Made by a program: the position numbers and the translations under genes
NCBI RefSeq assembly: GCF_046105845.1
Contig: NZ_CP151004.1
DNA from: Escherichia coli
GTDB lineage: Bacteria; Pseudomonadota; Gammaproteobacteria; Enterobacterales; Enterobacteriaceae
Reading direction: 5' to 3' (one strand)
Length of the DNA: 64,000 nucleotides
Shown: positions 1 to 20,996 of the stretch, one piece after another
How the letters are laid out: every line of letters starts with the position of its first letter
Numbering within the stretch: position 1 is the first letter of the stretch
The notes under the pieces: model-generated
The model's database searches: none
Seen by the model: the letters and a program-made list of their open reading frames with translations, nothing else
Told to the model about the DNA's origin: nothing

Positions 1-972
1 GTTAGCGCGCGGGCTAATAACCCTGAACCTGGTTTCCAGTTGATTAACCAGCGAATCACCCACAGCACGATTAACGACAATATTTGGGCATCGCTACAAA
101 ATGCTCAAATTCAGGCGTTGAAAACGCTCGACCAGCGTCCAGCGGAGAAATTCGCCCAGCAGATGTATGAGACGCGCTATGCTGATGACCGCACGAAATT
201 ACTGCAAGAAAATCAGATTGCACAGTTTACTGCCGCAGATGCGCTGGCTGCCGATCGCCAGTTGTTTTCATCTCCAGCGGATATCACGTTTGTCATTGTC
301 GGTAATGTCGCAGAAGACAAACTCGTGGCGTTAATTACGCGTTACTTAGGGTCAATCAAACACTCTGATTCGCCATTAGCCGCAGGTAAACCATTAACTC
401 GCGCGACGGACAACGCATCGGTTACTGTAAAAGAACAAAATGAACCTGTGGTACAGGTTTCACAGTGGAAGCGTTATGATTCCCGGACACCTGTTAATCT
501 GGCGACGCGTATGGCGCTCGATGCTTTTAACGTCGCACTGGCAAAAGATCTACGCGTTAATATTCGTGAACAGGCCTCTGGGGCATACAGCGTTTCTTCT
601 CGCCTCTCGGTTGATCCTCAGGCCAAAGATATCAGTCATTTGCTGGCTTTTACTTGTCAACCGGAACGACATGATGAACTGTTAACGTTAGCGAATGAAG
701 TGATGGTTAAGCGTCTGGCTAAAGGGATCAGTGAGCAAGAACTGAACGAATACCAGCAAAACGTTCAGCGCAGCCTCGATATCCAACAGCGTAGCGTTCA
801 ACAATTAGCGAACACCATTGTAAATAGTCTTATTCAATATGACGATCCTGCAGCATGGACTGAGCAGGAGCAATTATTGAAACAAATGACGGTAGAGAAT
901 GTTAACACTGCCGTTAAACAATATCTTTCTCATCCGGTGAATACCTATACCGGAGTATTATTGCCAAAATAA
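1..972 (+). CDS. pqqL: Zinc metallopeptidase PqqL (M16 family), C-terminal ~323 codons; 5' end lies outside the window
   Basis: Frame-1 reading frame open from window edge to stop at 970-972 (track ORF 40..972 is its internal-Met portion); translation recognised as PqqL C-terminus; sits upstream of gadB as expected. Confidence 0.85.
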   Translation, partial: VSARANNPEPGFQLINQRITHSTINDNIWASLQNAQIQALKTLDQRPAEKFAQQMYETRYADDRTKLLQENQIAQFTAADALAADRQLFSSPADITFVIVGNVAEDKLVALITRYLGSIKHSDSPLAAGKPLTRATDNASVTVKEQNEPVVQVSQWKRYDSRTPVNLATRMALDAFNVALAKDLRVNIREQASGAYSVSSRLSVDPQAKDISHLLAFTCQPERHDELLTLANEVMVKRLAKGISEQELNEYQQNVQRSLDIQQRSVQQLANTIVNSLIQYDDPAAWTEQEQLLKQMTVENVNTAVKQYLSHPVNTYTGVLLPK

Positions 973-978
973 TAACAG

Positions 979-1008
979 CCCCGTCAACACCTCGTTGGCG
1001 GGGATTTT
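979..1008 (+). terminator. Rho-independent terminator-like hairpin after pqqL (CCCCGTCAAC / GTTGGCGGGG stem, then ATTTT)
   Basis: 10-bp stem with one G-U pair and short loop followed by T-rich tract, read from sequence. Confidence 0.5.
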
Positions 1009-1234
1009 AGCAATATTCGCTATTTTTATGTAATAATTTTATAAATGCGTTCAAAATAATAACCAAGTACTAATAGTGATATTTTAAGGTCTGATTTTTA
1101 CGTGATAATTCAGGAGGCGTAGAAAGTGCATAAAAATAACAGCATAAAACACCTTGCCATCACCCAAGAATTCAATAATGTATTGATTTTCAATGATAAA
1201 ATATTATTCGCATAATATCTCACGATAAATAACA

Positions 1235-1254
1235 TTAGGATTTTGTTATTTAAA
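1235..1254 (+). promoter_or_regulatory. GAD box (GadX/GadW/GadE-binding element) upstream of gadB
   Basis: Sequence TTAGGATTTTGTTATTTAAA about 80 bp upstream of gadB start; matches the conserved 20-bp gad box as I remember it. Confidence 0.65.
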
Positions 1255-1333
1255 CACGAGTCCTTTGCACTTGCTTACTTTATCGATAAATCCTACTTTT
1301 TTAATGCGATCCAATCATTTTAAGGAGTTTAAA

Positions 1334-2734
1334 ATGGATAAGAAGCTAGTAACGGATTTAAGGTCGGAACTACTCGATTCACGTTTTGGTGCGAAGTCTA
1401 TTTCCACTATCGCAGAATCAAAACGTTTTCCGCTGCACGAAATGCGCGACGATGTCGCATTTCAGATTATCAATGACGAATTATATCTTGATGGCAACGC
1501 TCGTCAGAACCTGGCCACTTTCTGCCAGACCTGGGACGACGAAAATGTCCACAAGTTGATGGATTTATCCATTAACAAAAACTGGATCGACAAAGAAGAA
1601 TATCCGCAATCTGCAGCCATCGACCTGCGTTGCGTAAACATGGTTGCCGATCTGTGGCATGCGCCTGCGCCGAAAAATGGTCAGGCCGTTGGCACCAACA
1701 CCATTGGTTCTTCCGAGGCCTGTATGCTCGGCGGGATGGCGATGAAATGGCGTTGGCGCAAGCGTATGGAAGCCGCAGGTAAGCCGACCAACAAACCAAA
1801 CCTGGTGTGCGGTCCGGTACAAATCTGCTGGCATAAATTCGCCCGCTACTGGGATGTGGAGCTGCGTGAGATCCCTATGCGCCCCGGTCAGTTGTTTATG
1901 GACCCGAAACGCATGATTGAAGCCTGCGACGAAAACACCATCGGCGTGGTGCCGACTTTTGGCGTGACCTACACCGGTAACTATGAGTTCCCGCAGCCGC
2001 TGCACGATGCGCTGGATAAATTCCAGGCCGACACCGGTATCGACATCGACATGCACATCGACGCCGCCAGCGGTGGCTTCCTGGCACCGTTCGTCGCCCC
2101 GGATATCGTCTGGGACTTCCGCCTGCCGCGTGTGAAATCGATCAGTGCTTCAGGCCATAAATTCGGTCTGGCTCCGCTGGGCTGCGGCTGGGTTATCTGG
2201 CGTGATGAAGAAGCGCTGCCGCAGGAACTGGTGTTCAACGTTGACTATCTCGGTGGTCAGATTGGGACTTTCGCCATCAACTTCTCCCGCCCGGCGGGTC
2301 AGGTGATTGCACAGTACTATGAATTCCTGCGCCTTGGTCGTGAAGGCTATACCAAAGTACAGAACGCTTCCTACCAGGTCGCTGCCTATCTGGCGGATGA
2401 AATCGCCAAACTGGGGCCGTATGAGTTCATCTGTACTGGTCGCCCGGACGAAGGCATTCCGGCGGTTTGCTTCAAACTGAAAGATGGTGAAGATCCGGGA
2501 TACACCCTCTACGACCTCTCTGAACGTCTGCGTCTGCGCGGCTGGCAGGTTCCGGCCTTCACTCTCGGCGGTGAAGCCACCGACATCGTGGTGATGCGCA
2601 TTATGTGTCGTCGCGGCTTCGAAATGGACTTTGCTGAACTGTTGCTGGAAGACTACAAAGCCTCCCTGAAATATCTCAGCGATCACCCGAAACTGCAGGG
2701 TATTGCCCAGCAGAACAGCTTTAAACATACCTGA
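1334..2734 (+). CDS. gadB: Glutamate decarboxylase beta (PLP-dependent), 466 aa
   Basis: Track ORF 1265..2734; internal Met ([19 protein letters not shown]...) preceded by TAAGGAG RBS; full-length recognisable GadB sequence. Confidence 0.97.
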
Positions 2735-2754
2735 TAACGTTTAACGGTAACGGT

Positions 2755-2780
2755 GTCCCGAAACCCACCCGTTTCGGGAC
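2755..2780 (+). other. Intercistronic hairpin between gadB and gadC (GTCCCGAAAC / GTTTCGGGAC, 10-bp perfect stem)
   Basis: Perfect inverted repeat just after gadB stop; no following T-run, so likely an mRNA structural element rather than a strong terminator. Confidence 0.35.
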
Positions 2781-2889
2781 AATTTCCAAAGTCTGTTCAC
2801 TGGCATTAGCAACGGAAAATATTGTTCTGAATACGCTACAGAACAAAACAGGTGCGGTTCCGACAGGAATACCGTTTTAGGGGGATAAT

Positions 2890-4425
2890 ATGGCTACATC
2901 AGTACAGACAGGTAAAGCTAAGCAGCTCACATTACTCGGATTTTTTGCCATAACGGCATCGATGGTAATGGCTGTTTATGAATACCCTACCTTCGCAACA
3001 TCGGGCTTTTCATTAGTCTTCTTCCTGCTATTAGGCGGGATTTTATGGTTTATTCCCGTGGGACTTTGTGCTGCGGAAATGGCCACCGTCGACGGCTGGG
3101 AAGAAGGTGGTGTCTTCGCCTGGGTATCAAATACTCTGGGGCCGAGATGGGGATTTGCAGCGATCTCATTTGGCTATCTGCAAATCGCCATTGGTTTTAT
3201 TCCGATGCTCTATTTCGTGTTAGGGGCACTCTCCTACATCCTGAAATGGCCAGCGCTGAATGAAGACCCTATTACCAAAACTATTGCAGCACTCATCATT
3301 CTTTGGGCGCTGGCATTAACGCAGTTTGGTGGCACAAAATACACGGCGCGAATTGCTAAAGTTGGCTTCTTCGCCGGTATCCTGTTACCTGCATTTATTT
3401 TGATCGCATTAGCGGCTATTTATCTGCACTCCGGTGCCCCCGTTGCTATCGAAATGGATTCGAAGACCTTCTTCCCTGACTTCTCTAAAGTGGGCACCCT
3501 GGTTGTATTTGTTGCCTTCATTTTGAGTTATATGGGCGTTGAAGCTTCCGCAACCCACGTCAATGAAATGAGCAATCCAGGGCGTGACTATCCACTGGCT
3601 ATGTTACTGCTGATGGTGGCGGCAATCTGCTTAAGCTCTGTTGGCGGTTTGTCTATTGCGATGGTCATTCCGGGTAATGAAATCAACCTCTCCGCAGGGG
3701 TAATGCAAACCTTTACCGTTCTGATGTCCCATGTGGCACCGGAAATTGAGTGGACGGTTCGCGTGATCTCCGCACTGCTGTTACTGGGTGTTCTGGCGGA
3801 AATCGCCTCCTGGATTGTTGGTCCTTCTCGCGGGATGTATGTCACAGCGCAGAAAAACCTGCTGCCAGCGGCATTCGCTAAAATGAACAAAAATGGCGTA
3901 CCGGTAACGCTGGTCATTTCGCAGCTGGTGATTACTTCTATCGCGTTGATCATCCTCACCAATACCGGTGGCGGTAACAACATGTCCTTCCTGATCGCAC
4001 TGGCGCTGACGGTGGTGATTTATCTGTGTGCTTATTTCATGCTGTTTATTGGCTACATTGTGTTGGTTCTTAAACATCCTGACTTAAAACGCACATTTAA
4101 TATCCCTGGTGGTAAAGGGGTGAAACTGGTCGTGGCTGTTGTCGGTCTGCTGACTTCAATTATGGCGTTTATTGTTTCCTTCCTGCCGCCGGATAACATC
4201 CAGGGTGACTCTACCGATATGTATGTTGAATTACTGGTCGTTAGTTTCCTGGTGGTACTTGCCCTGCCCTTTATTCTCTATGCTGTTCATGATCGTAAAG
4301 GCAAAGGGAATACCGGCGTCACTCTGGAGCCAATCAACAGTCAGAACGCACCAAAAGGTCACTTCTTCCTGCACCCGCGTGCACGTTCACCACACTATAT
4401 TGTGATGAATGACAAGAAACACTAA
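2890..4425 (+). CDS. gadC: Glutamate:GABA antiporter (APC family), 511 aa
   Basis: Track ORF; ATG start; multi-pass membrane protein recognised as GadC; operonic with gadB. Confidence 0.97.
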
Positions 4426-4555
4426 CCATGTCTGAATGGTTATAAGATAAGGGAGCGATAATTCATCGCTCCCTTTTTCGTGCTTGCTGTCGTATTGACT
4501 TAACCGGGATAAGTACGAGAATGAGCGCACATCTGTTTACCGGAAACCAGCACAT

Positions 4556-5875
4556 ATGGATATCTGCTCCCGAAACGAGAAATTAGCGATTAGAAGACCA
4601 GCGGTACTGGTTGCACTGGCACTTTTACTGTGTAGTTGCAAAAGCACGCCTCCAGAGTCAATGGTGACACCACCAACAGGTTCGAAGCCACCAGCTACGA
4701 CGCAACAATCGTCACAACCGATGCGTGGCATCTGGCTGGCCACAGTGTCTCGCCTCGACTGGCCACCGGTTTCCTCGGTTAACATTAGTAACCCCACCAG
4801 CCGGGCCCGTGTACAACAACAGGCGATGATCGACAAACTGGATCATCTGCAACGTCTCGGCATAAACACGGTCTTTTTCCAGGTCAAGCCAGACGGTACC
4901 GCCCTGTGGCCATCGAAAATTTTGCCGTGGTCCGATCTTATGACCGGTAAGATTGGTGAAAATCCGGGTTACGATCCGCTGCAATTTATGCTCGACGAAG
5001 CCCACAAGCGTGGGATGAAAGTACACGCCTGGTTTAACCCCTATCGCGTATCGGTTAATACGAAGCCCGGTACTATCAGGGAACTGAATAGCACTCTGTC
5101 TCAACAACCAGCGAGCGTCTATGTGCAACACCGCGACTGGATCAGAACGTCCGGCGATCGCTTTGTCCTCGACCCGGGCATCCCTGAGGTTCAGGACTGG
5201 ATCACATCAATAGTCGCAGAAGTGGTTTCCCGCTATCCGGTAGATGGCGTGCAGTTTGACGACTATTTCTATACTGAGTCACCAGCTTCACGGCTAAATG
5301 ATAACGAAACGTACCGCAAATACGGAGGCGCATTTGCGTCAAAAGCAGACTGGCGGCGCAACAATACTCAGCAGTTAATTGCGAAGGTATCGCACACCAT
5401 TAAAAGCATTAAGCCGGAAGTCGAATTTGGCGTTAGCCCGGCAGGCGTGTGGCGTAACCGATCACACGATCCGCTCGGTTCCGATACCCGAGGCGCGGCA
5501 GCCTATGACGAATCATACGCTGACACCCGTCGATGGGTGGAACAAGGATTGCTGGATTACATTGCTCCCCAAATTTACTGGCCGTTCTCACGGAGTGCCG
5601 CACGTTATGACGTTTTGGCAAAATGGTGGGCGGATGTCGTTAAACCGACCAGGACCCGCCTGTATATCGGTATCGCCTTCTATAAAGTGGGTGAACCTTC
5701 AAAGATAGAGCCAGACTGGATGATTAACGGCGGCGTACCGGAACTGAAAAAGCAGCTCGATCTTAACGATGCCGTGCCAGAAATTAGCGGCACAATCTTG
5801 TTCCGTGAGGACTATCTGAATAAACCGCAGACTCAACAAGCGGTTAGCTATCTGCAAAGTCGTTGGGGCAGTTAA
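4556..5875 (+). CDS. yddW: Putative lipoprotein YddW (glycoside hydrolase-like family), 439 aa
   Basis: Track ORF; N-terminal signal with LLCSC lipobox-like motif; position between gadC and dosC. Confidence 0.85.
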   Translation: MDICSRNEKLAIRRPAVLVALALLLCSCKSTPPESMVTPPTGSKPPATTQQSSQPMRGIWLATVSRLDWPPVSSVNISNPTSRARVQQQAMIDKLDHLQRLGINTVFFQVKPDGTALWPSKILPWSDLMTGKIGENPGYDPLQFMLDEAHKRGMKVHAWFNPYRVSVNTKPGTIRELNSTLSQQPASVYVQHRDWIRTSGDRFVLDPGIPEVQDWITSIVAEVVSRYPVDGVQFDDYFYTESPASRLNDNETYRKYGGAFASKADWRRNNTQQLIAKVSHTIKSIKPEVEFGVSPAGVWRNRSHDPLGSDTRGAAAYDESYADTRRWVEQGLLDYIAPQIYWPFSRSAARYDVLAKWWADVVKPTRTRLYIGIAFYKVGEPSKIEPDWMINGGVPELKKQLDLNDAVPEISGTILFREDYLNKPQTQQAVSYLQSRWGS

Positions 5876-5892
5876 ACTCCCATTCTTACTTT

Positions 5893-5927
5893 GTAACAAG
5901 CCGGTGCTTTCCCCCCCGGCTTGTTAC
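5893..5927 (+). terminator. Terminator-like hairpin after yddW (12-bp perfect stem GTAACAAGCCGG / CCGGCTTGTTAC)
   Basis: Perfect 12-bp inverted repeat with 11-nt loop immediately 3' of yddW; weak T-tract. Confidence 0.45.
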
Positions 5928-6251
5928 CCTCTTGAAATATCCCACTAGTAATCATGCTTACTTAAGTCAAATTAACTACGCAATTAACCACACTTAGTTA
6001 AACAGTCATAAACCCCCTAATAAAAATGTATGAATATGAAAAAACATACGATATTCGCTGTCACCGAAAAATAATTACGATGGGCTATACTCTTCTGAAG
6101 AACAGTAGCGTAGATTGAAACTGTCCTAAGTCGCTTATTTGTTTTCAGTATATCTTCATATTTCAGGAGAATATGGTGCAGTTAGTCGATCTCGCACGTT
6201 GCGTTTCGTTTTGATTCCGTCTGCTTTCCCAGCCTTATAAGGGTGTGAATT

Positions 6252-7634
6252 ATGGAGATGTATTTTAAAAGAATGAAAGATGAGTGGACCGGGCTTGTCG
6301 AACAAGCAGATCCGCTCATTCGTGCTAAAGCCGCGGAAATTGCCGTTGCGCATGCCCATTATCTGAGTATTGAGTTTTACCGAATTGTCCGTATCGACCC
6401 GCATGCCGAAGAATTCTTGAGTAATGAACAAGTTGAGCGGCAGTTGAAAAGTGCGATGGAACGCTGGATTATTAACGTGCTTTCTGCCCAGGTTGACGAT
6501 GTCGAAAGGCTAATACAAATCCAGCATACCGTCGCGGAAGTGCATGCCCGCATAGGAATTCCGGTAGAAATTGTCGAGATGGGGTTTCGGGTGCTGAAAA
6601 AAATCCTCTATCCGGTAATCTTCTCTTCGGATTATTCCGCCGCAGAAAAACTTCAGGTCTACCATTTCTCTATTAACAGTATTGATATCGCTATGGAAGT
6701 GATGACCCGCGCGTTTACCTTTAGTGACAGTAGTGCCTCAAAGGAAGATGAAAACTATCGTATCTTCTCGTTACTGGAAAATGCCGAAGAAGAAAAAGAA
6801 CGGCAAATAGCCTCATTACTTTCATGGGAAATAGATATTATCTATAAAGTCCTACTGGATTCTGATTTAGGCAGTAGTTTGCCTTTAAGCCAGGCTGATT
6901 TTGGCCTGTGGTTTAACCATAAAGGTCGACATTATTTTAGCGGCATAGCCGAAGTGGGCCATATCTCCCGTCTGATTCAGGATTTCGACGGTATTTTCAA
7001 TCAAACCATGCGTAACACCAGGAATTTGAATAACAGAAGTTTGCGGGTGAAATTTTTATTACAGATAAGAAATACCGTATCGCAAATTATTACCTTGCTG
7101 CGTGAATTGTTTGAAGAAGTATCGCGCCACGAAGTCGGTATGGATGTACTGACGAAATTACTTAACCGCCGTTTCCTGCCGACGATCTTCAAACGCGAAA
7201 TTGCCCATGCCAACCGGACCGGTACACCGCTGTCAGTGCTGATTATTGACGTTGATAAATTCAAAGAGATTAACGATACGTGGGGCCATAACACTGGCGA
7301 TGAAATTCTGCGTAAAGTCTCTCAGGCCTTTTATGACAACGTCCGCAGTAGTGATTATGTTTTCCGCTACGGGGGCGATGAATTTATCATTGTTTTGACT
7401 GAAGCTTCGGAAAACGAAACGTTACGTACCGCAGAACGTATTCGCAGTCGGGTGGAGAAAACCAAACTGAAAGCCGCGAACGGCGAAGATATTGCCCTCT
7501 CACTTTCCATCGGTGCCGCCATGTTTAATGGTCATCCTGACTATGAGCGCCTCATTCAAATAGCCGATGAAGCTCTGTATATCGCCAAAAGACGAGGTAG
7601 AAACCGTGTTGAACTCTGGAAAGCCAGTCTTTAG
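6252..7634 (+). CDS. dosC: Oxygen-sensing diguanylate cyclase DosC (globin sensor + GGDEF), 460 aa
   Basis: Track ORF; GGDEF-domain C-terminus (RYGGDEF motif visible); recognised as DosC/YddV. Confidence 0.95.
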   Translation: MEMYFKRMKDEWTGLVEQADPLIRAKAAEIAVAHAHYLSIEFYRIVRIDPHAEEFLSNEQVERQLKSAMERWIINVLSAQVDDVERLIQIQHTVAEVHARIGIPVEIVEMGFRVLKKILYPVIFSSDYSAAEKLQVYHFSINSIDIAMEVMTRAFTFSDSSASKEDENYRIFSLLENAEEEKERQIASLLSWEIDIIYKVLLDSDLGSSLPLSQADFGLWFNHKGRHYFSGIAEVGHISRLIQDFDGIFNQTMRNTRNLNNRSLRVKFLLQIRNTVSQIITLLRELFEEVSRHEVGMDVLTKLLNRRFLPTIFKREIAHANRTGTPLSVLIIDVDKFKEINDTWGHNTGDEILRKVSQAFYDNVRSSDYVFRYGGDEFIIVLTEASENETLRTAERIRSRVEKTKLKAANGEDIALSLSIGAAMFNGHPDYERLIQIADEALYIAKRRGRNRVELWKASL

Positions 7635-7658
7635 ATGCGCCAGGATGCAGAGGTAATC

Positions 7659-10058
7659 ATGAAGCTAACCGATGCGGATAATGCCGCCGATGGCATTTTT
7701 TTCCCCGCCCTTGAGCAAAATATGATGGGCGCGGTGTTAATTAACGAAAATGATGAAGTGATGTTTTTCAACCCCGCCGCAGAGAAGCTCTGGGGGTACA
7801 AACGTGAAGAAGTTATTGGCAATAACATTGATATGCTGATTCCGCGGGATTTGCGTCCCGCGCATCCTGAATACATCCGTCACAACCGTGAAGGCGGTAA
7901 AGCGCGCGTCGAGGGGATGAGTCGGGAGCTGCAGCTGGAGAAAAAAGACGGCAGTAAAATCTGGACCCGTTTTGCGCTATCGAAAGTGAGCGCCGAGGGT
8001 AAAATTTATTACCTGGCGCTGGTACGAGATGCCAGCGTAGAAATGGCGCAAAAAGAACAGACCCGACAATTGATTATTGCCGTTGACCATCTCGACCGAC
8101 CGGTGATTGTCCTCGATCCGGAACGCCATATTGTGCAGTGCAATCGCGCATTTACCGAAATGTTTGGTTACTGCATTAGCGAAGCCAGCGGTATGCAGCC
8201 CGATACACTCCTGAACATTCCAGAATTCCCTGCTGATAACCGCATTCGTTTACAACAGTTGCTATGGAAAACCGCCCGCGATCAGGACGAATTTCTGCTG
8301 TTGACGCGCACCGGTGAAAAAATCTGGATTAAAGCCTCTATCAGCCCGGTCTATGATGTGCTCGCGCATCTGCAGAACCTGGTAATGACTTTCTCGGATA
8401 TCACCGAAGAACGGCAAATCCGCCAGCTTGAAGGCAATATTCTCGCCGCCATGTGCAGCAGCCCGCCATTTCATGAAATGGGGGAAATCATTTGTCGTAA
8501 CATCGAATCTGTTCTCAACGAATCGCATGTTTCGCTGTTCGCGCTGCGCAACGGGATGCCGATACACTGGGCGTCATCTTCGCACGGTACAGAAGTTCAA
8601 AATGCGCAAAGCTGGTCAGCGACCATTCGTCAGCGTGATGGCGCGCCGGCGGGGATCCTGCAAATTAAAACCTCGTCAGGAGCAGAAACCAGCGCCTTTA
8701 TCGAACGCGTGGCAGATATCAGCCAGCATATGGCCGCGCTGGCGCTGGAACAGGAAAAAAGCCGTCAGCATATTGAACAACTCATCCAATTTGATCCGAT
8801 GACCGGTCTGCCAAATCGCAATAACCTGCACAATTACCTCGATGACCTGGTCGACAAAGCCGTCTCTCCGGTGGTGTATCTCATCGGTGTTGACCATATT
8901 CAGGATGTGATTGATAGCCTTGGCTATGCGTGGGCCGATCAGGCATTGCTGGAAGTGGTCAATCGCTTTCGTGAAAAACTCAAACCGGATCAGTATCTCT
9001 GTCGTATCGAAGGTACGCAGTTTGTCCTCGTGAGCCTGGAAAACGACGTCAGTAACATTACCCAGATCGCCGATGAGCTACGGAATGTGGTCAGCAAGCC
9101 GATAATGATTGACGATAAACCATTCCCGCTTACCTTGAGTATTGGCATCAGCTACGACGTGGGTAAAAACCGCGATTACCTGCTCTCCACTGCTCACAAT
9201 GCAATGGATTATATTCGCAAGAATGGCGGTAACGGCTGGCAGTTCTTCAGCCCGGCGATGAACGAAATGGTAAAAGAGCGTTTGGTTTTAGGCGCAGCGC
9301 TGAAAGAAGCGATTAGCAATAACCAACTGAAACTGGTTTACCAGCCACAAATCTTCGCAGAAACGGGTGAACTCTACGGCATCGAAGCCCTTGCTCGCTG
9401 GCACGATCCCCTGCATGGTCATGTGCCCCCTTCACGGTTTATTCCTCTCGCAGAAGAGATTGGTGAAATCGAAAATATTGGGCGCTGGGTCATCGCGGAA
9501 GCTTGCCGTCAGTTAGCAGAATGGCGTAGCCAGAATATTCATATCCCGGCGTTATCCGTTAACTTGTCGGCGCTGCACTTTCGCAGTAATCAACTGCCTA
9601 ATCAGGTGTCTGATGCAATGCACGCCTGGGGTATTGACGGCCACCAGCTGACGGTGGAAATCACGGAAAGCATGATGATGGAACACGATACCGAAATCTT
9701 TAAGCGCATTCAGATCCTGCGCGATATGGGCGTGGGTTTATCGGTAGATGATTTTGGCACGGGCTTTTCCGGATTATCCCGCTTAGTCAGTCTTCCGGTA
9801 ACGGAAATCAAAATTGACAAAAGTTTTGTCGATCGTTGTCTGACCGAAAAACGCATCCTTGCCTTACTTGAAGCCATTACCAGCATTGGGCAAAGCCTTA
9901 ATTTAACCGTCGTGGCGGAAGGCGTCGAAACCAAAGAGCAATTTGAGATGCTACGCAAGATCCACTGTCGCGTTATTCAGGGATATTTCTTTTCCCGCCC
10001 CCTGCCCGCCGAAGAAATTCCAGGCTGGATGAGCAGCGTGTTACCGCTGAAAATCTGA
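7659..10058 (+). CDS. dosP: Oxygen-sensing c-di-GMP phosphodiesterase DosP (PAS-PAS-GGDEF-EAL), 799 aa
   Basis: Track ORF 7635..10058; start placed at internal Met MKLTDADNA...; EAL motif region present; immediately follows dosC. Confidence 0.93.
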   Translation: MKLTDADNAADGIFFPALEQNMMGAVLINENDEVMFFNPAAEKLWGYKREEVIGNNIDMLIPRDLRPAHPEYIRHNREGGKARVEGMSRELQLEKKDGSKIWTRFALSKVSAEGKIYYLALVRDASVEMAQKEQTRQLIIAVDHLDRPVIVLDPERHIVQCNRAFTEMFGYCISEASGMQPDTLLNIPEFPADNRIRLQQLLWKTARDQDEFLLLTRTGEKIWIKASISPVYDVLAHLQNLVMTFSDITEERQIRQLEGNILAAMCSSPPFHEMGEIICRNIESVLNESHVSLFALRNGMPIHWASSSHGTEVQNAQSWSATIRQRDGAPAGILQIKTSSGAETSAFIERVADISQHMAALALEQEKSRQHIEQLIQFDPMTGLPNRNNLHNYLDDLVDKAVSPVVYLIGVDHIQDVIDSLGYAWADQALLEVVNRFREKLKPDQYLCRIEGTQFVLVSLENDVSNITQIADELRNVVSKPIMIDDKPFPLTLSIGISYDVGKNRDYLLSTAHNAMDYIRKNGGNGWQFFSPAMNEMVKERLVLGAALKEAISNNQLKLVYQPQIFAETGELYGIEALARWHDPLHGHVPPSRFIPLAEEIGEIENIGRWVIAEACRQLAEWRSQNIHIPALSVNLSALHFRSNQLPNQVSDAMHAWGIDGHQLTVEITESMMMEHDTEIFKRIQILRDMGVGLSVDDFGTGFSGLSRLVSLPVTEIKIDKSFVDRCLTEKRILALLEAITSIGQSLNLTVVAEGVETKEQFEMLRKIHCRVIQGYFFSRPLPAEEIPGWMSSVLPLKI

Positions 10059-20965: not shown

Positions 20966-20996
20966 AAAAAATGGCGCTTCTTAAAGCGCCATTTTC
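20964..20996. terminator. Bidirectional rho-independent terminator shared by yddM (+) and fdnI (-)
   Basis: A-run, ATGGCGCTT / AAGCGCCAT perfect stem, T-run; lies between convergent genes. Confidence 0.6.

What the first reader, a model, noticed from the sequence alone, without database searches (positions are those of the whole stretch)
2755..2780. Perfect 10-bp hairpin in the gadB-gadC intercistronic spacer
GTCCCGAAAC-CCACCC-GTTTCGGGAC lies ~20 bp after the gadB stop but lacks a T-tract, so it probably does not terminate but could stabilise the upstream gadB mRNA segment, consistent with differential gadB/gadC levels.
Basis: seen in the sequence. Interest (0 to 1): 0.2.

Follow-up and report, generated by a model that had tools for sequence, protein, structure and literature searches.

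The report
Hairpin ending gadB-only mRNA
The hairpin is real and conserved between the E. coli acid-resistance genes gadB and gadC, and published RNA-end maps show gadB transcripts ending just after it, so it is an ordinary but functional device that probably lets the cell keep more enzyme message than transporter message.

Summary
The stem is slightly longer than reported: a perfect 11-bp stem (T2754-A2781), with loop CCACCC, starting 19-20 nt after the gadB stop. It has no T-run.

It is not chance. It is single-copy and present in 5405 of 5426 complete E. coli genomes. Within E. coli the stem never varies, while the loop carries five alleles. In E. albertii, 15 of 30 hairpin positions differ, yet pairing is kept through three compensatory double changes. 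The short T-run decays across lineages (AATTTCC, then AAATTCC, then AAACTCC).

Two published K-12 3'-end maps place an RNA 3' end 4-6 nt after the stem. Adams 2021 Term-seq puts it at MG1655 1570594, which is window 2785. The TRS 2023 analysis puts it at 1570592, window 2787, with signal 0.82 against 1.0 for the gadC terminator.

Best reading (about 0.5): a U-less protective stem-loop that fixes and stabilises the 3' end of a gadB-only mRNA while polymerase reads through to gadC. Main rival (about 0.3): a leaky intrinsic terminator.

This is an ordinary kind of element, a new member of a known class. Interest is low.

The parts
1334..2734 (+). gadB coding sequence (glutamate decarboxylase B); TGA stop at 2732-2734 followed by in-frame TAA at 2735-2737
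   Evidence: the translation matches annotated GadB
2754..2764 (+). 5' arm of the hairpin (TGTCCCGAAAC)
   Evidence: invariant in E. coli; covaries with the 3' arm in E. albertii
2765..2770 (+). Loop (CCACCC in this window). Positions 2765, 2766 and 2768 are polymorphic in E. coli. In most strains G2765:C2770 forms a 12th pair, leaving a 4-nt loop.
2771..2781 (+). 3' arm of the hairpin (GTTTCGGGACA)
2782..2791 (+). Tail ATTTCCAAAG, where RNA 3' ends map. U2785 is the Adams 2021 Term-seq end (MG1655 1570594). C2787 is the TRS dominant end (MG1655 1570592, called region 1570588-1570598 = window 2781-2791).
   Evidence: coordinate map is window = 1573379 - MG1655 position, checked against the printed sequence strings
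2786..2889 (+). gadC leader. Its primary sequence is strongly conserved: the block AAGTCTGTTCACTGGCATTAGCAA (2789-2812) is invariant across Escherichia. It holds a second hairpin, GTTCTGAA/TACAGAAC (2824-2844), and the Shine-Dalgarno AGGGGG (2879-2884).
2890..4425 (+). gadC coding sequence (glutamate:GABA antiporter)
4449..4480 (+). Canonical intrinsic terminator of the operon (AAGGGAGCGAT-AATTC-ATCGCTCCCTT followed by TTTC). The mapped 3' end is C4479 (MG1655 1568900).

Best explanation
The element is a U-less protective stem-loop in the gadBC mRNA.

Proposed sequence of events:
1. RNA polymerase starting at the gadB promoter transcribes through the stem-loop into gadC, because there is no U-tract to release it.
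2. The gadC part of the transcript is lost, either by endonucleolytic cleavage or by ends formed further downstream.
3. 3'-to-5' exonucleases (PNPase, RNase II) then chew back until the 11-12-bp G+C-rich stem stops them, 4-6 nt from its base.
4. This leaves a gadB-only mRNA with a structured, stable 3' end.
5. The result is more decarboxylase message than antiporter message from a single promoter.

Shown here: the stem; its conservation by covariation; its position clear of the terminating ribosome; and an RNA 3' end just downstream in K-12.

Inferred: that the end is made by trimming rather than release; that it prolongs gadB mRNA life; and that it changes the GadB:GadC ratio.
For: 1. Perfect 11-bp stem, -18.5 kcal/mol, z = -3.8. 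Perfect hairpins of this size occur 6 times in the window against 0.2 expected.

2. RNA 3' ends lie right after it in two published analyses of K-12. Adams 2021 Term-seq (M63 glucose sheet) gives 1570594(-), 33,817 reads, against 70,553 reads at the gadC terminator. TRS Supplementary Data 2 gives a dominant end at 1570592, signal 0.82 against 1.0 at the gadC terminator, p of 1e-17 or smaller in all three replicates, annotated 'alternative primary in TU, gadB'.

3. Structure is conserved but sequence is not. Between E. coli and E. albertii, 15 of 30 hairpin positions differ, yet three pairs change on both sides (U:A to C:G once, A:U to G:C twice). Folding energy is kept (-20.6 vs -17.3). A divergent E. 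coli lineage (E69) has A:U changed to G:U. 96% of cells pair, against 28-52% when the 3' partner is slid.

4. The G:U pairs make the sense strand fold better than the antisense strand (E69: -18.4 vs -15.2).

5. The T-run is not conserved: AATTTCC, then AAATTCC (E69), then AAACTCC (E. albertii).

6. Within E. coli, 5310 of 5406 records carry an exact stem and flanks with one of five loop alleles. The loop sequence is therefore free and the stem is not.

7. Dar & Sorek 2018 (PMC6061677) showed that U-poor stem-loops mark steady-state 3' ends in E. coli and protect against PNPase and RNase II.

8. Unrelated strong T-less hairpins sit in the gadB-antiporter spacer of Hafnia paralvei, Yersinia ruckeri and Mesopusillimonas (z = -8.5, -5.3, -4.5).
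Against: No data here separate trimming from termination. The Adams 3' end sits exactly on the last U of AAUUU, as a weak intrinsic terminator would give.

All three compensatory pairs come from one lineage (E. albertii). Template-switch correction of quasi-palindromes could keep arms complementary without selection on RNA.

The 3' end was listed in only one of three Adams conditions.

No half-life or abundance data for gadB versus gadC were retrieved.

Many other gadB-antiporter operons have short spacers with no significant hairpin, so the arrangement is not required.
Confidence: 0.5

Rival explanations
1. The element is a leaky intrinsic (Rho-independent) terminator or intra-operon attenuator. 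A fraction of polymerases release at the AAUUUCC tail after the hairpin folds. The rest read through to gadC. The gadB:gadC transcript ratio is thus set at the level of transcription.
For: The hairpin is G+C-rich and terminator-like in size and energy. The Adams Term-seq 3' end falls on the last U of UUU. The TRS dominant end is 6 nt from the stem, and the called region reaches 10 nt. This is compatible with release at 7-9 nt followed by slight trimming. Dar & Sorek note that U-poor stem-loops may be inefficient intrinsic terminators.
Against: Only 3 U occur in the 8 nt after the stem, and the two stem-proximal positions are A. The consensus scan did not call it. The U-run shrinks to 2 and then 1 in E69 and E. 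albertii, while the stem is maintained by compensatory change. There is no A-tract upstream.
Confidence: 0.3
2. Rho-dependent polarity acts in the 155-nt untranslated spacer. Rho loads downstream of the hairpin and terminates diffusely in the leader or early gadC. The hairpin then marks only the trimmed steady-state end.
For: The 108-nt stretch between the hairpin and the gadC start is untranslated. The U-less stem-loop with a precise 3' end matches the Dar & Sorek class of Rho-dependent termini.
Against: There is no C-rich, G-poor region downstream: C/G = 0.8 for 2782-2889, with predicted structure throughout. No Rho-termination region is listed near 15704xx-15706xx in Adams supplementary file 2, although that experiment was run in LB at OD 0.4, where gad is poorly expressed. 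gadC has a strong Shine-Dalgarno sequence.
Confidence: 0.1
3. The hairpin has no dedicated function. It is a self-maintaining quasi-palindrome, or a DNA-level palindrome bound by a protein. On this reading the RNA 3' end is an incidental by-product of any stable stem.
For: Template switching can copy a change from one arm to the other, mimicking compensatory evolution (general knowledge). The arms form a perfect DNA palindrome.
Against: The stem is invariant in at least 98% of 5406 E. coli records, next to a freely varying loop. G:U pairs are tolerated only in the sense RNA. The half-site sequence changes between species, which argues against a sequence-specific dimeric protein site. The element is single copy and not a repeat family.
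Confidence: 0.1

Closest known systems
U-poor protective 3' stem-loops of E. coli mRNAs (Dar & Sorek 2018, PMC6061677)
   Same: A stable stem-loop of terminator-like size, no uridine tract, and a precise steady-state 3' end a few nucleotides downstream.
   Different: Those were described mainly at the ends of Rho-terminated transcription units, with a C>G region downstream. This one lies inside an operon, must allow read-through to gadC, and has no C>G bias downstream. Dependence on PNPase or RNase II is untested here.
Intercistronic stabiliser hairpins giving differential expression within operons (REP elements after malE in malEFG; puf operon hairpins of Rhodobacter capsulatus), recalled from established literature
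   Same: A stem-loop just after the upstream, more highly needed cistron. The upstream segment ends at the stem while the distal segment is lost. The pairing of a soluble protein with a membrane component resembles malE versus malFG.
   Different: This is not a REP/BIME element: it is single copy with a unique sequence. Differential decay of gadB versus gadC has not been measured.
Canonical intrinsic terminators, such as the gadC terminator at 4449-4480 in this window
   Same: A G+C-rich hairpin of similar length and energy, with an RNA 3' end close behind.
   Different: The 7-8-nt U-tract is missing: 3 U in E. coli and 1 in E. albertii. There is no upstream A-tract. The TRS signal is 0.82 against 1.0.
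The hairpin after the paralogue gadA (before gadX) in K-12
   Same: A strong hairpin with a 15-bp stem about 17 nt after the stop of the near-identical decarboxylase gene. There is no clean T-run, and a co-oriented gene lies downstream.
   Different: The sequence is unrelated: gadA/gadB homology ends just after the stop codons. No 3' end is listed there in the Adams tables.

Membership tests
Intrinsic (Rho-independent) terminator | G+C-rich stem-loop | tested here: met
   11-12 bp with 6-7 G:C pairs, -17 to -20 kcal/mol
Intrinsic (Rho-independent) terminator | 7-8-nt uridine-rich tract directly after the stem | tested here: not met
   The tail is AAUUUCCA, with 3 U in 8. The consensus scan did not call it. 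E69 has 2 U and E. albertii has 1.
Intrinsic (Rho-independent) terminator | Factor-independent release of RNA polymerase at the site | not testable with these tools
   Needs in vitro transcription. The in vivo 3' ends at 2785/2787 fit either release or trimming.
U-less exonuclease-protective 3' stem-loop (Dar & Sorek class) | Stable stem-loop immediately upstream of a precise steady-state RNA 3' end, without a U-tract | tested here: met
   3' ends lie 4 and 6 nt after the stem in two published analyses. The tail is U-poor.
U-less exonuclease-protective 3' stem-loop (Dar & Sorek class) | Longer 3' extensions accumulate when PNPase or RNase II is removed | not testable with these tools
   The supplementary tables of PMC6061677 are not held.
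U-less exonuclease-protective 3' stem-loop (Dar & Sorek class) | C-over-G (rut-like) bias downstream, for the Rho-dependent subset | tested here: not met
   C/G = 0.8 over 2782-2889; 78-nt windows give 0.6-1.0.
REP/BIME or other dispersed palindromic repeat | Many copies per genome sharing a consensus | tested here: not met
   One place per genome in 5405 genomes.
Any Rfam RNA family | Covariance-model match | tested here: not met
   No hit at or near 2754-2781, even at E-values up to 10.
Conserved structured RNA element (generic) | Base pairs maintained by compensatory substitutions | tested here: met
   3 of 12 pairs change on both sides and 1 changes to G:U. 96% of cells pair, against 28-52% in slid controls. 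At most 9 of 500 shuffles reach the observed values. All double changes come from one lineage.

The most novel reading that the evidence does not exclude
The hairpin may be one half of a dedicated post-transcriptional module that sets enzyme-to-transporter stoichiometry.

First, a T-less 3' stabiliser for gadB would have arisen independently in several gadB-antiporter operons: Escherichia, Hafnia, Yersinia ruckeri and Mesopusillimonas.

Second, the 108-nt gadC leader is unusually conserved. It diverges about 10% between E. coli and E. albertii, against 29-40% at four-fold sites. It could be an undescribed cis-regulatory RNA controlling gadC translation or decay, for example through an sRNA, RNase E or a pH-responsive mechanism.
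Probability: 0.2. Interest if true: 0.45.

Novelty: new member of a known kind. Interest (0 to 1): 0.2.

Why it matters
GadB and GadC form the main extreme-acid resistance system of E. coli and Shigella. They are always drawn as a simple two-gene operon.

A conserved stem-loop that produces a separate, stable gadB message would explain how one promoter supplies a very abundant cytoplasmic enzyme and a much scarcer membrane antiporter. It would also matter for anyone engineering gadBC for GABA production or reading gad transcript levels.

In kind it is a textbook mechanism, so the gain is local annotation rather than a new principle.

Tried and rejected
- Rfam scan of 1-8000 at E-values up to 10: nothing at the hairpin.
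- Repeat family: rejected, because the element is single copy.
- Internal gadC promoter: the scan found only one weak site, at 2860-2889 with 9 of 12 matches, overlapping the Shine-Dalgarno sequence. The conserved TTCACT...TATTGT scores 8 of 12, below threshold (and own reading). No transcription-start data could be retrieved, because Thomason 2015 is not held.
- Small ORFs in the spacer: only mechanical TTG or GTG frames.
- Rut-like composition downstream: absent.
- Metagenome scan for divergent Escherichia spacers (pattern CCTGATAACGTTTAANNNGTAACGG): one contig, identical to the E69 type, so no new variants.
- Sequence homology between the Escherichia spacer and the Hafnia, Y. ruckeri and Mesopusillimonas spacers: none.
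- Literature: no paper in the held library discusses this hairpin or a gadB-only transcript. The classic northern-blot papers (Tramonti 2002 and 2006, Waterman & Small 2003) and Li 2014 are not held.
- Supplements: those of Dar & Sorek 2018, Herzel 2022 and the Rend-seq annotation paper are not held. The SMRT-Cappable-seq tables contain no gadB or gadC entry.
- Matching 3' end after gadA in the Adams tables: none listed.

Full report
**Observation**

The window is E. coli DNA. It carries gadB (1334-2734), a 155-nt spacer, gadC (2890-4425) and digH/yddW downstream, in reverse orientation relative to MG1655.

The arms are GTCCCGAAAC (2755-2764) and GTTTCGGGAC (2771-2780), and the loop is CCACCC (2765-2770). 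T2754 pairs with A2781, so the perfect stem is 11 bp, not 10.

The stem starts 19-20 nt after the TGA stop (2732-2734), which is followed by an in-frame TAA. The tail is AATTTCCAAA, and the terminator-pattern scan did not call it.

The hairpin folds at -18.5 kcal/mol, with z = -3.8 and none of 200 shuffles as good. Perfect hairpins of at least 11 bp occur 6 times in the 64-kb window, against 0.2 expected. The others include the gadC terminator (4449-4475).

**Distribution and variation within E. coli**

A 43-nt query around the hairpin finds one place per genome in 5405 of 5426 complete E. coli genomes. It is therefore a single-copy, near-universal feature, not a REP-like repeat. Rfam has nothing here.

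In nine aligned strains, the spacer differs at only five positions:
- three loop positions (2765, 2766, 2768);
- one private G/C at 2753;
- a T-to-A change at 2838 found only in this window.

Exact-match counts for the five loop alleles are:

| Loop allele | Records | Note |
|---|---|---|
| GAACCC | 3595 | K-12 and O157 type |
| GAAGCC | 1105 | |
| ACACCC | 362 | |
| GCACCC | 247 | |
| CCACCC | 1 | this window's allele |

Together these are 5310 of 5406 records (98.2%) with stem and flanks intact. In about 93% of these, the first and last loop bases (G and C) add a 12th pair, leaving a 4-nt loop. The stem is fixed and the loop is free.

**Variation between species**

A scan of one genome per species with GadB returned three further Escherichia gadB-gadC loci with a homologous spacer:
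- a divergent 'E. coli' E69 (L009);
- E. albertii (L010);
- Escherichia sp. E1V33 (L012).

E. albertii reads GCCCCGGGCCGACATCTTGTCCCGGGGC. Fifteen of 30 hairpin columns differ from the window. Three pairs change on both sides: 2756:2779 from U:A to C:G, and 2761:2774 and 2762:2773 from A:U to G:C. One pair is lost, two extra pairs form in an enlarged loop, and folding energy is kept at -20.6 against -17.3 kcal/mol. E69 shows the intermediate state, G:U at 2761:2774.

On the nine-sequence alignment, 96% of cells pair, against 28-52% when the 3' partners are slid by 1-3 columns. At most 9 of 500 shuffles reach the observed number of double changes.

The G:U pairs make the sense strand fold better than the antisense strand (E69: -18.4 vs -15.2), which points to an RNA-level role on the gadBC transcript.

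The short T-run is not conserved. It reads AATTTCC in E. coli, AAATTCC in E69 and AAACTCC in E. albertii.

For scale, four-fold degenerate sites differ by 29% (gadB) and 40% (gadC) between the window and E. albertii. The spacer outside the hairpin differs by only 13 of 128 positions, about 10%. The hairpin therefore evolves freely in sequence but not in structure, while the rest of the spacer is constrained in sequence.

One caveat applies. All three double changes come from one lineage, and template-switch repair of quasi-palindromes could produce concerted arm changes without selection.

**Experimental evidence from published tables**

The mapping window = 1573379 - MG1655 coordinate comes and was checked against the printed sequence strings.

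Adams et al. 2021 (PMC7815308) list a curated Term-seq 3' end at 1570594(-) in the M63-glucose sheet of supplementary file 1.
- It has 33,817 reads.
- It is labelled 'orphan' because it lies 51 nt from the gadB stop, just outside their 50-nt rule.
- This is U2785, 4 nt after the stem.
- The gadC terminator end (1568900 = C4479) has 70,553 reads in the same sheet.

The TRS paper (PMC10687069, Supplementary Data 2) calls a 3' terminus at 1570588-1570598.
- The dominant position is 1570592, which is C2787.
- The signal is 0.82, where 1 means no downstream read starts. The gadC terminator scores 1.0.
- It is significant in all three replicates.
- It is annotated 'alternative primary in TU, gadB'.

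I found no paper that comments on it.

**Mechanism**

The anatomy and the 3' ends fit the class described by Dar & Sorek 2018 (PMC6061677). That class comprises stem-loops as stable as terminator hairpins but without a U-tract. They mark precise steady-state 3' ends and protect transcripts from PNPase and RNase II.

Here the element sits inside an operon. My best account runs as follows:
1. Polymerase reads through the hairpin to gadC.
2. The distal part of the transcript is lost.
3. Exonucleases stop at the stem.
4. This leaves a stable gadB-only mRNA.

This is the same logic as the REP-stabilised malE segment of malEFG (established literature, not tested here). I give it about 0.5.

The main rival, at about 0.3, is partial intrinsic termination at AAUUU. 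The Adams end lies on the last U. However, the stem-proximal bases are A, only 3 of 8 tail bases are U, and the run decays in the very lineages that preserve the stem.

Rho-dependent termination in the untranslated leader followed by trimming is a variant, at about 0.1. The leader is not C-rich or G-poor (C/G = 0.8). No Rho region is listed there, although the bicyclomycin experiment was done where gad is hardly expressed.

A non-functional or DNA-level palindrome, at about 0.1, is disfavoured by the invariant stem next to a variable loop, by the strand asymmetry, and by the change of half-site sequence between species.

**Wider comparison**

Outside Escherichia, the antiporter downstream of gadB is only about 31% identical to GadC, and the spacers are not homologous.

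Even so, strong hairpins without T-runs sit in the spacer of Hafnia paralvei (-27.6 kcal/mol, z = -8.5), Yersinia ruckeri (-30.6, z = -5.3) and Mesopusillimonas faecipullorum (-31.9, z = -4.5). Most other Yersinia and many metagenome-assembled loci have short spacers with nothing significant. The arrangement is recurrent but not universal.

The paralogue gadA in K-12 has its own unrelated 15-bp hairpin about 17 nt after the stop, also without a clean T-run.

**Verdict**

The element is real, conserved and associated with an RNA 3' end.

It is a new, so far undiscussed member of a well-known kind of element. Its interest is low.

Noticed in passing
window 2765-2770: The hairpin loop is the polymorphism hot spot of the spacer. 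Five alleles at three of six positions occur in 5406 E. coli records, with minor-allele frequencies of about 7%, 11% and 21%. Position 2765 is tri-allelic (G, A or C). The other 37 bases of the 43-mer differ in under 2% of records. The window's own allele, CCACCC, occurs in only one other complete genome. This could reflect relaxed constraint or a loop-specific mutation hot spot.
   Followed up: partly
window 2786-2889: The gadC leader downstream of the hairpin is about 3-4 times more conserved than four-fold sites between E. coli and E. albertii (11 of 108 positions differ, against 29-40%). It holds an invariant block, AAGTCTGTTCACTGGCATTAGCAA (2789-2812), and a second hairpin (2824-2844; the window's private T2838A breaks one pair). 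This suggests an unrecognised regulatory function for gadC expression.
   Followed up: partly
window 53510-53661: A 13-bp perfect T-less hairpin (53627-53661) lies 21 nt after a 31-codon ORF (53510-53605, MNVSSRTVVLINVFAAVGLFTLISMRFGWFI). From memory this ORF is the small membrane protein YncL. The Adams 2021 M63 sheet lists a very strong 3' end here (MG1655 1517039(-), 433,399 reads), labelled only 'antisense to patD'. This is another U-less hairpin with an abundant RNA end.
   Followed up: partly
L089 1363-1321 (- strand; MG1655 gadA-gadX spacer): gadA, 97-98% identical to gadB, loses homology right after the stop codons. It carries its own 15-bp hairpin, AACCGAATGCCCAGC/GCTGGGCATTCGGTT, with tail GCTTATTAAT. 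No 3' end is listed there in the Adams tables.
   Followed up: partly
L013-L046, L084 (genome-contig loci): GadB and the downstream antiporter have discordant histories. In Hafnia and Yersinia, GadB is 82-89% identical to E. coli GadB but the antiporter is only about 31% identical to GadC. In Mesopusillimonas, GadC is 71% identical but GadB only 60%. E. fergusonii and Salmonella did not appear among the best 80 loci.
   Followed up: no
window 1226-1252: A 9-bp inverted repeat, TAAATAACA/TGTTATTTA, flanks and overlaps the sequence TTAGGATTTTGTTATTTAAA upstream of gadB. From memory this is the GAD box bound by GadE.
   Followed up: no
E. coli genome search: Five of the 5406 matching places for the gadB-gadC hairpin are on records typed as plasmids.
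   Followed up: no
window 29517-29542 and 20968-20995: There are further perfect hairpins of at least 11 bp. CTGATTTATCA-AGGG-TGATAAATCAG has tail AAAAACATTG. AAAATGGCGCTT-CTTA-AAGCGCCATTTT has tail CAGCTTAAAG. Neither was examined.
   Followed up: no
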